Assembly: GCA_016788785.1 (NCBI GenBank)
Contig: JAEUSM010000006.1
Span: 473,864 to 537,863 of the forward strand
Source: Candidatus Kapaibacterium sp.
GTDB lineage: Bacteria; Bacteroidota; Ignavibacteria; Kapaibacteriales; JAEUSM01
Reading direction: 5' to 3'
Length of the DNA stretch: 64,000 nucleotides
Position numbers: made by a program. The stretch's first letter is position 1, and each line of letters opens with the position of its first letter. Below are positions 12,001-15,000 of the stretch, piece after piece.

Positions 12001-15000
12001 GACTCAACAACCAGTTACGGTTCATATTCTGGAGCTGTTCCAAATGAAAAAATTACTTGGGGTAAGTTATCAAAGGTAACTCCACGATATGTCATCGAAT
12101 CTGATGCAACAATTGTTGCTCCTCTAATTTTTGCTTGGGTATTGAATTGGTAAAATTTCCGTAATTTTGCAGAGAACAATGCACTTCAATCGAAGTGCAT
12201 TTTTTTTTTGTACATATTCATATCTCAAATGAGAAAACGCACAAAAAGGATTCATACAACTCCTGAATTGAACAAAATGTCACCAAAATCACGATTTAGA
12301 CTTGTTGCAGTAGTTTTAGTTCTCTTGTTATTGGTTCTCATACGATTTTTTTCTAAAAAACTTGGTTAATTTTTTTCAAAAAAATATTTGCTTTGTAGTT
12401 TAGGAAATTCGTAGTACGGAATTTTTTGTCTCATTCCAAATTAAATTGACCTTTGTGGAAAAGTAATTTTAAATTGTGGATAACTTTGTGGAAAAATAAA
12501 AACTACCGTTACTTTTACAAAATGTAACATACCCATTTTTCGATACATAGAAATTTTGACTCCCCATAAACCGAGACTTAGATATTACAAGCGGTAAAAG
12601 TTACGCAAAATGGGAGGGATTGAGGATAATGTGGATAACCTGTGGATAACGTTGTGGAAATGTTCCAAGTTATCCACAAAAAATGGGGATTTTTGTTGAA
12701 TCCCCATTTACCGATGTCTAAAATTTGTTGTCTAAATATAACCAGATTTTTTCTTCAATTGGCTAAAGTACAATTTCTATTTTTGAAGCAATTGTTTCAT
12801 CCTATCTGTAATCAAAGCACTTCTAAAATGTACATTTACCACCCAAAAAAATGCAATTATAAATGAAAATAACGAAAGTGAGAAAATCACTTGTTTGAAT
12901 GGATTTAATGCATCCTCATCAGTTGAAAGAACTGGACCAATATTTTCAGAACCTGCCCCACCTGGGTGCAAACTTTCCGTAATTCTTGGAATGATAAAAA
13001 TCAAAAATGGAACAGTAACAAAGGCTAAAATAGCATAAACCGAACTTAATCTCGCTCGAGGTTCATCTTGTTGAATTGCACTACGTAACACAAAATACGC
13101 ACCATAGACCAATAGAAGCACGAAAATAGTTGTTTGTCGTGGATCCCAATTCCAATAGTATCCCCAATTGAATTGAGCCCAAACTGCTCCTGTAATAGTT
13201 GCAAGTATACAGGTAATCGTACCAATCAATGCAGTAGATGCTGATTTGCGATCATATTCCATTGTTCGTTTGCGTAAATATTGAATAGCATAAACCATAC
13301 TTATCAAATATGCCAAACATGCAATCCACGCCATGGGAACATGGAAATACAAAATTCTTGCACGTTCATCTAATCCAAACATATATGGCAAAATTAACGA
13401 GGGATTTGTCGCAACAATTCGTTCCAAAGTTACAAATGTATGTGAAGTATCCATCGAACCACGAACAATGTATTTGGTATCTTTTACTAATGATTCGATT
13501 AACTCTTTAGAACCTCGTAGATTTGTAGACCGAGTTTTTTTGGAATAATCTTCTACTTGAATTGATGATGTTGTTGCATCAATTGAAACTGGTGATGATA
13601 TGGGCTTGACAGTCATGTTAATAGACGAGACAGTATTTGTAGACATCATTGCCGAATCAAGCAAGGTACCGCCAATTGGTGGAAATAATGCCAAAAAGCA
13701 GGTAAGTAATAATGAAGCGATTACAATGAGTTTCCACCAAACTGGTTTCGGTTTAGAAATAGAGGGGAAAAAACCCAACAATATTCCACCTAAAACTGCA
13801 GCAGTCATTAACAAATGTTTCATCTATTTTTTTTAGAAATGTTACGGTATTTTCTGATTATTTTTCTACGACGTAGGTAATGATTCGCAATTTTGTGGAA
13901 AAACTATTACTTTTGTTTTTCCATCAAAAAATATCGCTCCCAAACTAATCATTGAACCCAATGAATCCTCAAATCCAACATTCGGTTAAAAACTTTTGGA
14001 AAGTTCGTTTTATTGGCGTAATTATACTCGTAGGTATATGTTCAGTCATCGGCAAATTGTTTTATATTCAGAATCTGGATGCAGAAAAATACCAAGCTAA
14101 AGCTCAAAGACAATACGATTCACGTATCGAACTGCTCCCAGTTCGCGGAAATATTTATGATAGGAATGAAAATCTGATAGCGTCCAATACGCAATCTATT
14201 TCAATTGCAGTCGATCCGAAACAAATTGAGAATATCAAATACGTTACAACAATGATTGCCTCAATAACCAACAAAAAAGCATCGGATTACGAAAAGATGA
14301 TAAAAAAATCTAACAAACGATTTTTGTGGTTGGCTCGAGGTATTTCAGTTCTTCATGCAAATAAGATTGATACGTTAAAGGACAAAGGTATCATTAGTAT
14401 TAAAGAACCAAAACGTAACTTTGTTTATGGCTCTGTTGCATCACAAATTATTGGTACAACTGATATTGATAACAAAGGTAGTTCTGGTTTGGAATTGCTG
14501 TTAGATTCCTCGTTACGTGGAATTCCTGGTTATAAGATATTGCAACGAGATGGTCGTGGTAATTTGAGACCATCGGTCGATATGCAATTACTACCAGCAG
14601 TAAATGGCAATACAGTTACGCTGACATTAGATATAGATATACAAAAAGTAGTTGAACACGAATTGCAAAAAGGTATAGAAGAAACACAAGCATCAGCAGG
14701 TTCTGTGTGTATTATGGATGTACGTACTGGAGAAGTTTTAGCAATGGCATCCTATCCAACGTTTTCTCCAGACAAATTGGCGACTGCAACATTCGATGCA
14801 ATGAGGATTCGTTCAATAACCGATACCTATGAACCAGGCTCTACTTTCAAGTTAATCACTTCAGCTGCTGCTTTGGAAGAAAAAATTGTAACTCCCAATA
14901 CTGAAGTTGATGGAATGGGTGGAGTTATGAAATATGGAGAATTTCTTATAAAAGATTCTCATGGAATGGGAAGAGTTCCATTTGTAAAGGCGGTAGAAAA

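What the first reader, a model, noticed from the sequence alone, without database searches (positions are those of the whole stretch)
12454..12712. Cluster of perfect DnaA boxes: candidate replication origin or DnaA-titration site between convergent genes
Four perfect TTATCCACA / TGTGGATAA 9-mers and three one- or two-mismatch boxes sit within ~225 bp, in both orientations. An AT-rich stretch at ~12330-12420 could serve as a DNA-unwinding element. By chance, a perfect 9-mer would be expected about once per 130 kb. No dnaA or dnaN gene is adjacent; the flanking genes are DHS-like and ccsA. So this is either a non-canonical oriC location, a DnaA-regulated promoter, or a datA-like titration locus. 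The last box overlaps the putative ccsA terminator hairpin.
Basis: partly seen in the sequence, partly recalled or inferred. Interest (0 to 1): 0.6.

Follow-up and report, generated by a model that had tools for sequence, protein, structure and literature searches.

The report
Conserved DnaA-box cluster, probably not oriC
A 225-bp stretch with eight binding sites for the replication initiator DnaA is real and strongly conserved in one genus of Kapabacteria, but strand composition on either side shows no change of replication direction, so it is more likely a DnaA-binding control site than the chromosome's origin.

Summary
There are four perfect TTATCCACA boxes, three one-mismatch boxes and one two-mismatch box in 12454-12678. 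Only two other perfect boxes occur in the 64 kb. The cluster lies between a deoxyhypusine-synthase-like gene, an overlooked 46-aa ORF, and a convergent CcmC-type gene (not CcsA). It is conserved at this site in four species of one Kapabacteria genus. Their synonymous sites are saturated (34-47% identity), yet the box arrays are 72-86% invariant. So this is a functional DnaA-binding locus.

Whether it is oriC cannot be settled, but the local evidence leans against it.
- No dnaA or dnaN lies between -22 kb and +60 kb.
- The orientation-corrected GC and AT skew terms have the same sign and size on both sides, so there is no switch.
- There is no DnaA-trio signal above chance.
- The AT-rich tract is unremarkable and poorly conserved.
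- The cluster sits in a genus-specific 9-15 kb segment that splits the ccmC-ccmDEF operon.

oriC is not excluded, because Bacteroidota origins are commonly far from dnaA.

My estimates: non-origin DnaA-box cluster (datA/DBC-like) about 0.5; oriC about 0.25; DnaA-regulated promoter or island-borne origin about 0.1 each. Either way it is a new member of a known kind, of modest interest. Whole-genome skew or read-depth analysis would decide.

The parts
12454..12495 (-). Sub-cluster A: three DnaA boxes in one orientation. TTTTCCACA at 12454-12462, perfect TTATCCACA at 12475-12483, TTTTCCACA at 12487-12495. Spacers are 12 and 3 bp.
   Evidence: 93-95% identical to the three other species and 86% of columns invariant, including the inter-box spacers.
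12621..12661 (-). Sub-cluster B array: four head-to-tail boxes. TTATCCTCA 12621, perfect 12630, perfect 12641, ATTTCCACA 12653. Start-to-start spacing is 9, 11 and 12 bp, about one helical turn.
   Evidence: AATGTGGATAACCTGTGGA is invariant in four species. The same phased 3-box array occurs in 119+ genome loci of many phyla, mostly at dnaA-dnaN.
12670..12678 (+). Single inverted perfect DnaA box. It abuts the U-tract of the ccmC terminator.
   Evidence: GTTATCCACAAAAAA is invariant in four species.
12496..12620 (.). 125-bp spacer between the sub-clusters, with conserved blocks that are not DnaA boxes. One block is 12513-12536, TTTTACAAAATGTAACATACCCAT, which contains the palindrome TTACA-N3-TGTAA. 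The other is 12582-12616, ATATTAC..GGTAAAAGTTACGCAAAATGGGAG. CCCAT/ATGGG occurs 5 times in 12532-12707. These are presumed binding sites for unknown factor(s).
   Evidence: 53% of columns invariant against 17% in the control stretch 12713-12776. No RNA covariation. CCCAT background is 1.3 per kb. The block GGTAAAAGTTNNGNAANATGGGAG is found only in this genus among JGI metagenomes.
12345..12409 (.). AT-rich tract (82-88% AT) with two copies of ATTTTTTTC[T/A]AAAAAA. It is the only candidate unwinding element. The first copy codes for the C-terminus of the small ORF.
   Evidence: It lies 45-110 bp from the nearest box. 12370-12453 is only 31% invariant, near neutral in the two more distant species.
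12229..12369 (+). Conserved 46-aa ORF (MRKRTKRIHTTPELNKMSPKSRFRLVAVVLVLLLLVLIRFFSKKLG). It has a basic N-terminus and one transmembrane helix. Function is unknown.
   Evidence: Searches show synonymous substitutions and an invariant C-terminus. No Pfam or NCBIfam hit. It is found only in this genus, and NCBI names it as a hypothetical protein of a Candidatus Kapabacteria MAG.
12178..12201 (+). Terminator-like hairpin plus T-run after the DHS-like gene. A Bacteroidota -7-like motif TAATTTTG (12162-12169) lies just upstream.
   Evidence: The motif TAnnTTTG is conserved in all four species.
12679..12709 (-). Intrinsic terminator of ccmC: 11-bp stem, 7-nt loop, U6.
   Evidence: I16; dG -17.8, z -2.6. 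The stem is kept in all four species.
11140..12153 (+). Deoxyhypusine-synthase-like gene (left flank).
   Evidence: PF01916, E 8e-41. 75-80% identical across Bacteroidota.
12777..13823 (-). CcmC-type cytochrome c biogenesis gene (right flank). In this genus it is separated from ccmD/E/F.
   Evidence: PF01578. TIGR01191 ccmC is the best family. Operon context in relatives.

Best explanation
This is a conserved, non-origin DnaA-box cluster. It is a chromosomal landing pad that binds about eight DnaA molecules, of the same kind as E. coli datA or the DnaA-box clusters (DBCs) of B. subtilis.

Proposed mechanism. DnaA domain IV occupies the four perfect boxes. Cooperative filling of the neighbouring weaker boxes, which are phased at about one helical turn in array B, builds an oligomer. 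Conserved non-box blocks in the 125-bp spacer recruit one or more unknown accessory proteins. The complex buffers the amount or the nucleotide state of free DnaA. In that way it tunes initiation at the true oriC, which lies elsewhere. The skew sign suggests it lies to the right of the 82 kb examined.

Shown: the boxes exist, they are far beyond chance, they are under strong purifying selection, they are not at a promoter, and there is no replication-direction switch here.

Inferred: DnaA binding itself, oligomer formation, and the effect on initiation.
For: 1. Real and selected. There are 8 boxes in 225 bp. The cluster is kept at the same site in four species whose 4-fold sites are saturated (34-47% identity), yet cluster A is 86% invariant and cluster B 72% invariant, against 17% in a control stretch.

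2. No strand-asymmetry switch. On an 82.5-kb composite (L150 + window + L148, with identical overlaps), the orientation-corrected GC term on the + strand is -0.014 (left), -0.013 (12.5-54.5 kb) and -0.014 (beyond 54.5 kb). The AT term is +0.014 and +0.016 across the cluster. On the right side P(R>0) is 0.09 for all positions and 0.07 for third positions. Pooling four species within 10 kb either side gives negative terms on both sides as well. A constant-skew model fits better than a switch at 12.5 kb (RSS 408 vs 425).

3. No origin-linked genes or sites. No dnaA or dnaN from -22 kb to +60 kb. No parS in the window.

4. Secondary clusters of equal strength do exist. Poribacteria chromosome OZ242036.1 carries a dnaA-dnaN cluster (L070) plus a separate cluster of 4 perfect and 4 near-perfect boxes (L029). 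L076 and L088 are similar. B. subtilis has six DBCs outside oriC that restrain initiation (PMC3245932).

5. Box count. Ours (4 perfect, 7 with at most 1 mismatch) is at the low end of dnaA-adjacent origins carrying the same array (median 8 perfect, 11 total).

6. Lineage-specific setting. The cluster sits in a 9-15 kb genus-specific, gene-variable segment that splits ccmC from ccmD/E/F. It is absent at ccmC and DHS loci of other Kapabacteria.
Against: The skew test has low power. Each estimate is only 1-1.5 SE from zero, the left flank is short, and part of it is a variable island.

In Bacteroidota, oriC is commonly far from dnaA (PMC4755523), so the absence of dnaA is not evidence against an origin.

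I could not see the rest of the genome. I therefore could not show that a stronger cluster exists elsewhere.

Conservation of inter-box spacers and of extra blocks suggests a more elaborate nucleoprotein machine than a simple sink. That would also suit an origin.

No match to the E. coli IHF consensus that datA needs.

No non-origin DnaA-box cluster has, to my knowledge, been characterised in this phylum.
Confidence: 0.5

Rival explanations
1. It is the chromosomal replication origin (oriC) of this genus, located away from dnaA as in many Bacteroidota. DnaA would fill arrays A and B. The boxes read TGTGGATAA on the + strand and so point, as R1 does in E. coli, towards the AT-rich tract on their left (12345-12450), which would melt. 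The flanking terminators would insulate the origin. Transcription of the small ORF could help opening.
For: This is the strongest DnaA-box cluster in 82 kb, with 4-5 perfect boxes in every species.

The box arrays are 72-86% invariant while synonymous sites are saturated. Extra conserved blocks are present, as expected of an origin with accessory factors.

Across bacteria, 67% of interior loci with the same phased array are dnaA/dnaN-adjacent origins.

Box orientation relative to the AT-rich tract matches the E. coli DUE-R1 arrangement (sequence; the E. coli arrangement is from my own knowledge).

Ori-Finder's scheme gives its maximum box score for 3 or more perfect boxes (PMC10225481, Table S1).
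Against: The orientation-corrected GC and AT skew terms keep the same sign and size on both sides. An origin requires a sign change.

56% of the genes to the right lie on the - strand.

There is no DnaA-trio run beyond chance. The outermost box has none within 16 nt, and 35-40% of arbitrary positions pass the (NAN)3 rule.

The AT-rich tract is not exceptional. It is partly coding, lies 45-110 bp from the nearest box, and is poorly conserved.

The nearest studied relative, Melioribacter (Ignavibacteria), has its predicted oriC between dnaA and dnaN at the skew transition (PMC3534657).

The locus lies inside a genus-specific, gene-variable insertion in the ccm operon.

No parS in the window.
Confidence: 0.25
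2. It is a DnaA-controlled transcription element. DnaA bound here would repress or activate a promoter (for instance the -7-like TAACTTTG formed by the junction of boxes 12475 and 12487), or would block read-through from the small ORF or from ccmC. This would couple a small transcript or the ccm gene to the replication state.
For: DnaA acts as a transcription factor at box clusters in other bacteria (PMC3245932; PMC13438810 abstract).

A TAnnTTTG motif lies inside cluster A at 12481-12488.

The last box touches the ccmC terminator U-tract.
Against: Both flanking genes end at the cluster behind terminators.

The small ORF's own promoter-like motif is about 290 bp upstream of the first box.

The internal motif is broken in L017 (TAACTTCG).

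No conserved ORF lies in the spacer, where there are single-base indels. No covariation-supported RNA (1 compensatory pair of 50). No Rfam family.

Eight boxes is many for a simple operator.
Confidence: 0.08
3. It is an origin brought in with, or left behind by, a genomic rearrangement. It could be the replication origin of an integrated element, or a former or second chromosomal origin now embedded in the segment inserted between ccmC and ccmD. It might be silent or act as an accessory origin.
For: The cluster lies at the edge of a 9-15 kb genus-specific segment that interrupts an operon intact in other genera. That segment carries variable cargo: T9SS substrates, an anthrax-LF-like gene, DinB, and an HNH nuclease with an N6/N4 methylase.

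The lack of a skew switch would be expected for a silent or recently moved origin.
Against: No integrase, transposase, Rep, Par or relaxase domain appears among the genes of the segment.

No iterons other than DnaA boxes.

No similarity to any plasmid or phage record.

Strong purifying selection over a divergence that saturated synonymous sites argues against a decaying relic.
Confidence: 0.1

Closest known systems
DnaA-box clusters (DBCs) outside oriC in Bacillus subtilis (PMC3245932, PMC2533591)
   Same: These are dense clusters of consensus and near-consensus DnaA boxes in intergenic regions away from the unwinding site. They are stably bound by DnaA and restrain initiation. Their position differs between related species.
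   Different: This is a different phylum. Here the position is fixed within a genus. Extra conserved non-box blocks are present. No flanking gene could be regulated. No functional data exist, and distance to the real oriC is unknown.
E. coli datA (and the DARS sites)
   Same: It is a non-coding locus with about five high-affinity DnaA boxes that controls DnaA availability or nucleotide state rather than starting replication.
   Different: datA needs an IHF site between its boxes. No match to the E. coli IHF consensus is found here. There is no sequence homology. The box number and phasing differ.
Bacteroidota-type oriC far from dnaA (e.g. Prevotella intermedia OMA14, a 476-bp locus with multiple DnaA boxes at the GC-skew transition; PMC4755523)
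   Same: It is an intergenic cluster of E. coli-type DnaA boxes a few hundred bp long, not linked to dnaA, in the same phylum as defined by NCBI.
   Different: The Prevotella locus coincides with a clear GC-skew transition. Here the orientation-corrected skew does not change across the cluster.
Canonical dnaA-dnaN oriC with phased TGTGGATAA arrays (Thermus, Deinococcus, Poribacteria, Clostridia loci L025-L143; Melioribacter, PMC3534657)
   Same: It shares the identical three-box array with 11/12-bp phasing, plus an inverted box nearby.
   Different: Those arrays lie between dnaA and dnaN and usually have more boxes (median 8 perfect). Ours has no dnaA or dnaN within -22/+60 kb.
Secondary DnaA-box cluster of Poribacteria chromosomes
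   Same: It has 4 perfect plus up to 4 near-perfect boxes in about 300 bp, with the same phasing, at a locus without dnaA. The same chromosome (OZ242036.1) has a stronger dnaA-dnaN cluster.
   Different: It is an unrelated phylum with unrelated flanking genes. It is equally uncharacterised.

Membership tests
Bacterial chromosomal origin (oriC) | Cluster of DnaA boxes (3 or more, high affinity) in an intergenic region | tested here: met
   8 boxes, 4 of them perfect, in 225 bp. Conserved in four species.
Bacterial chromosomal origin (oriC) | AT-rich DNA unwinding element next to the outermost box | tested here: inconclusive
   The AT tract 12345-12409 is on the side expected from box orientation. 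It is only at the 98-99th percentile of instability, lies 45-110 bp from the box, is partly coding, and is 31% invariant.
Bacterial chromosomal origin (oriC) | DnaA-trio / basal unwinding system: box, spacer of 0-16 nt, then (NAN) repeated 3 or more times (PMC8287927) | tested here: inconclusive
   No run of 4 or more in three of the four species. The (NAN)3 hits lie inside other boxes or in the terminator loop. 35-40% of arbitrary positions pass the same rule.
Bacterial chromosomal origin (oriC) | Switch of replication-associated strand asymmetry (GC-skew minimum) at the locus | tested here: not met
   The orientation-corrected GC term is -0.014 left and -0.014 right. The AT term is +0.014 and +0.016. 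The constant model fits better than a switch. Power is low because only 82 kb is available.
Bacterial chromosomal origin (oriC) | Linkage to indicator genes (dnaA, dnaN, rpmH, gidA, ...) | tested here: not met
   None found from -22 kb to +60 kb. This is not a strict requirement in Bacteroidota (PMC4755523).
Bacterial chromosomal origin (oriC) | Start of bidirectional replication (marker-frequency peak, autonomous replication) | not testable with these tools
   Needs read mapping or experiments.
Bacterial chromosomal origin (oriC) | It is the strongest, or only, DnaA-box cluster of the chromosome | not testable with these tools
   Only 82 kb of the genome could be read. The dnaA locus of the genus could not be retrieved.
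Non-origin DnaA-box cluster (B. subtilis DBC type) | Several consensus-like DnaA boxes in an intergenic region that is not the site of initiation | tested here: inconclusive
   The boxes are met. 'Not the initiation site' is supported only by the lack of a skew switch.
Non-origin DnaA-box cluster (B. subtilis DBC type) | Deletion or extra copies change initiation timing | not testable with these tools
   Needs an experiment.
E. coli datA | IHF-binding site between essential DnaA boxes; promotes DnaA-ATP hydrolysis | tested here: not met
   No WATCARNNNNTTR match in 12100-12800 on either strand. The specificity of the host's IHF/HU is unknown, and the biochemistry is not testable here.
DnaA-regulated promoter | Boxes overlap or adjoin the promoter of a downstream gene or RNA | tested here: not met
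   Both neighbouring genes end here behind terminators. No conserved ORF or structured RNA is present. The internal -7-like motif is not conserved in L017.
Plasmid or phage origin (oriV with DnaA boxes) | Iterons and an adjacent rep or integrase gene; similarity to mobile elements | tested here: not met
   There are no repeats other than DnaA boxes and CCCAT motifs. No Rep or integrase domains nearby. No plasmid or phage match.

The most novel reading that the evidence does not exclude
Origin turnover. The cluster is a chromosomal origin that moved, or was newly recruited, into the split ccm operon in the ancestor of this genus. It would serve either as the sole origin, too recently relocated for the strand skew to have re-equilibrated, or as a second origin working alongside a dnaA-linked one.
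Probability: 0.07. Interest if true: 0.65.

Novelty: new member of a known kind. Interest (0 to 1): 0.3.

Why it matters
If it is a non-origin cluster, it would be, to my knowledge, the first described DnaA 'sink' or regulatory locus in the Bacteroidota/Kapabacteria lineage. Its conserved companion motifs (the TTACA-N3-TGTAA palindrome and the CCCAT repeats) point to unknown partner proteins of DnaA control in this group.

If it is oriC, it would fix the origin for an uncultured genus. That is useful for growth-rate estimates from metagenomic read depth, and for oriC plasmids.

Either result is incremental. It does not open a long-standing question.

Tried and rejected
1. Locating dnaA. These queries were validated by 40-75% identity hits in 63 of 119 control loci. 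They found nothing in the window, in the relatives' loci, or in the 10-kb extensions on either side. I could not obtain a Kapabacteria DnaA sequence, so the dnaA locus of the genus stayed out of reach.

2. Tracing the cluster beyond the genus. I tried via the DHS-like gene, ccmC, the 46-aa ORF and a conserved non-box block. The cluster and the ORF exist only in this genus.

3. Generic array pattern in 185,579 genomes. It served only for calibration.

4. Structured RNA in or around the cluster. RNAalifold found no covariation. Rfam gave nothing at gathering score and only chance-level hits at E<=1.

5. DnaA-trio/BUS search: nothing above chance.

6. IHF, CtrA and GATC motifs: none. parS: none.

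7. Plasmid or phage origin: no similarity.

8. Raw sliding-window GC skew simply follows gene orientation. It was replaced by orientation-corrected estimates.

9. Look-up of the NCBI 645-kb contig through the small ORF, and through the window's last ORF, failed.
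Full report
**Observation.** Perfect TTATCCACA boxes lie at 12475, 12630 and 12641 (all reading TGTGGATAA on the + strand) and at 12670 (reading TTATCCACA on the + strand). One-mismatch boxes lie at 12454, 12487 and 12621, and a two-mismatch box at 12653. The 64-kb window has only two other perfect boxes, at 7143 and 43138. Dinucleotide shuffles give about one perfect box per window, and none of 100 shuffles reach six. 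No other 300-bp interval comes close in box score: 17, against 5 or less. The boxes form two sub-clusters. A is 12454-12495, with three boxes. B is 12621-12678, with four head-to-tail boxes at 9/11/12-bp phasing plus one inverted box. The two are separated by 125 bp. A box pair, TGTGGATAAC-NTT-GTGGAAA, is duplicated between A and B (D1).

**Surroundings.** On the left is a deoxyhypusine-synthase-like gene (11140-12153, +; PF01916), followed by a hairpin and T-run (12178-12201). It is clearly coding, because its C-terminal 26 residues are invariant in four species while codons differ synonymously. It has no known family. On the right, on the opposite strand, is a cytochrome c biogenesis gene (12777-13823). 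It is of the CcmC type rather than CcsA: TIGR01191 is its best family, and its orthologues elsewhere sit in ccmC-ccmD-ccmE-ccmF operons. Its terminator (12681-12709, then U6) ends exactly at the inverted box. The cluster therefore lies between transcription ends, not at a promoter.

The window has no tRNA gene and no Rfam family. It contains none of the usual origin-linked genes. Flagellar genes together with T9SS sorting domains point to the Kapabacteria/Ignavibacteria branch. So do the best named relatives: Candidatus Kapaibacterium for the DHS-like gene and Candidatus Kapabacteria for the small ORF. NCBI places that branch in Bacteroidota.

**Conservation.** The same arrangement (DHS-like gene, small ORF, cluster, ccmC) occurs in three other species. 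Their CcmC proteins are 92%, 88% and 79% identical to the window's (L017, L018, L013). Each has 3-5 perfect boxes. Between these species the four-fold degenerate sites of the flanking genes are only 34-47% identical, which is saturation. Yet sub-cluster A is 93-95% identical (86% of columns invariant in all four) and B is 79-93% identical (72% invariant). The inter-cluster spacer is 53% invariant. A control stretch just past the terminator (12713-12776) is 17% invariant. In A even the spacers between boxes are fixed.

The 125-bp spacer contains conserved blocks that are not DnaA boxes. One is TTTTACAA-NN-TGTAACA-NN-CCCAT, which holds the palindrome TTACA-N3-TGTAA. Another is ATATTAC-N4-GGTAAAAGTT-NN-G-N-AA-N-ATGGGAG. 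CCCAT/ATGGG occurs five times in 180 bp, against 1.3 per kb in the window. There is no compensatory change that would indicate a structured RNA. The locus is therefore functional, and it binds DnaA and probably something else.

**Distribution.** Outside this genus the cluster is absent from both anchor genes. A Kapaibacterium species has the DHS-like gene next to smc, with no boxes within 10 kb. Three other genera have ccmC in an intact ccm operon with no boxes. A conserved non-box block is found only in contigs of this genus among JGI metagenomes, and so is the small ORF. In this genus ccmC and ccmD/E/F keep their order and orientation but are separated by 9-15 kb. That segment contains the cluster, the small ORF, the DHS-like gene and a species-variable set of genes: T9SS substrates, an anthrax-LF-like gene, DinB, and an HNH nuclease with a methylase.

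**Is it the origin? Evidence for.** It is a strong, conserved cluster. The identical phased three-box array occurs in at least 119 genome loci from many phyla. Of the 39 whose array lies well inside the fetched DNA, 26 have dnaA or dnaN alongside. In Bacteroidetes the origin is commonly far from dnaA (PMC4755523). Seven of the eight boxes point towards an AT-rich tract on the left, as box R1 does in E. coli (the E. coli arrangement is from my own knowledge).

**Is it the origin? Evidence against.**
- *Composition.* I joined the window to two overlapping, identical contigs of the same genome to obtain 82.5 kb (L150, L148). I then separated the coding-strand effect from a strand effect. The coding-strand term is 0.04. 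The residual GC term on the + strand is -0.014 left of the cluster, -0.013 from 12.5 to 54.5 kb, and -0.014 beyond. The AT term is +0.014 left and +0.016 right. An origin requires opposite signs on the two sides. On the right side the gene-bootstrap probability of the sign an origin needs is 0.09 for all positions and 0.07 for third positions. Pooling third-position and four-fold sites of all four species within 10 kb gives negative terms on both sides too. A constant term fits better than a switch at the cluster (RSS 408 vs 425). These numbers are individually weak but consistent. I take them as roughly 4-8 to 1 against a switch here.
- *Indicator genes.* There is no dnaA or dnaN from -22 kb to +60 kb, and no parS in the window.
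- *DnaA-trio signal.* None stands out. The outermost box has no (NAN)3 run within 16 nt. The few hits lie inside other boxes or inside the terminator loop, and 35-40% of arbitrary positions pass the same rule (rule from PMC8287927).
- *AT-rich tract.* It is partly coding, lies 45-110 bp from the nearest box, is only at the 98-99th percentile of low stability in the window, and is close to neutral in conservation.
- *Nearest studied relative.* Melioribacter has its predicted origin between dnaA and dnaN at the skew transition (PMC3534657).
- *Precedent for secondary clusters.* One Poribacteria chromosome in my scan has a dnaA-dnaN cluster (L070) and a separate eight-box cluster elsewhere (L029). 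B. subtilis has six such clusters that restrain initiation (PMC3245932).
- *Box count.* Ours is at the low end for dnaA-adjacent origins carrying the same array (median 8 perfect, 11 total).

**Verdict.** I rate the readings as follows.
- *Non-origin DnaA-binding locus of the datA/DBC kind: about 0.5.* DnaA would occupy the perfect boxes, spread cooperatively over the phased weaker ones and, with an unknown partner bound in the spacer, buffer the pool or the state of DnaA. The real origin would lie elsewhere, and the skew sign suggests to the right.
- *oriC: about 0.25.*
- *DnaA-controlled transcription element: about 0.08.* Nothing to be transcribed is evident.
- *Origin carried by or left from a rearrangement: about 0.1.* There are no mobile-element genes or similarities, and selection is strong.

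All mechanistic steps beyond 'conserved cluster of consensus DnaA boxes, no skew switch' are inference.

**What would settle it.** Whole-genome skew, the box census at dnaA, and read-depth gradients in the source metagenomes would decide. All are feasible with the public assemblies named under next steps.

**Novelty.** Under either reading this is a new member of a known kind in a little-studied lineage.

Noticed in passing
window 12229-12369 (+): A 46-aa ORF with a basic N-terminus and one transmembrane helix. Its C-terminal 26 residues are invariant in four species despite saturated synonymous sites. It has no Pfam or NCBIfam family and is found only in this genus. A conserved Bacteroidota -7-like motif TAnnTTTG lies at 12162-12169, upstream of the hairpin that also ends the DHS-like gene.
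   Followed up: partly
window 12777-13823, with L150 3333-7190 and L017 20155-20710: The ccm (System I cytochrome c maturation) operon is split in this genus. ccmC is separated from ccmD/ccmE/ccmF by a 9-15 kb segment whose gene content differs between species. Other Kapabacteria genera keep ccmC-ccmD-ccmE-ccmF contiguous (L020-L024).
   Followed up: partly
window 10006-10523: A 500-bp non-coding stretch with a (TA)12 microsatellite (10058-10082), which is the least stable duplex of the window. It also holds two or three GC-rich palindromic units (CCCCTCAAGAGGGG at about 10281 and 10328, and CCCTC..GAGGG at about 10405-10445) that resemble REP-like elements.
   Followed up: no
window 342-1463 (+): A gene with an anthrax lethal-factor-like N-terminal domain (PF03497, E 6e-30). 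It lies in the variable segment next to a metallo-beta-lactamase-fold gene and T9SS-secreted proteins, and is conserved in all four species.
   Followed up: no
window 40654-46640 (-): An operon-like run of a TonB-dependent receptor, an HTTM / vitamin-K-dependent gamma-carboxylase-like protein (PF05090 + PF22777), an imelysin and a DUF4856 protein. The carboxylase-like protein is an unusual bacterial homologue.
   Followed up: no
L029 1748-2062 and L070 5303-7083 (both on Poribacteria chromosome OZ242036.1); also L076, L088: Poribacteria chromosomes carry, besides a very box-rich dnaA-dnaN region, a second cluster of 4 perfect plus up to 4 near-perfect DnaA boxes at an unrelated locus. The second cluster recurs in several genomes of the phylum.
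   Followed up: partly
L097 5307-6231 (Cytophagales MAG JAAFJK010000089.1): About 20 DnaA boxes, 13 of them perfect, over 900 bp with no dnaA or dnaN on the 6.8-kb contig. This is probably an example of a Bacteroidota origin away from dnaA, and it is much richer in boxes than the cluster studied here.
   Followed up: no
window 29801-34855 (-) and T9SS domains at 3614-4993, 5954-7267, 27818-29302: Flagellar basal-body genes (flgA, F/G, H, I) coexist with several proteins carrying the T9SS C-terminal sorting domain. This combination is typical of the Ignavibacteria/Kapabacteria branch rather than of Bacteroidia.
   Followed up: no
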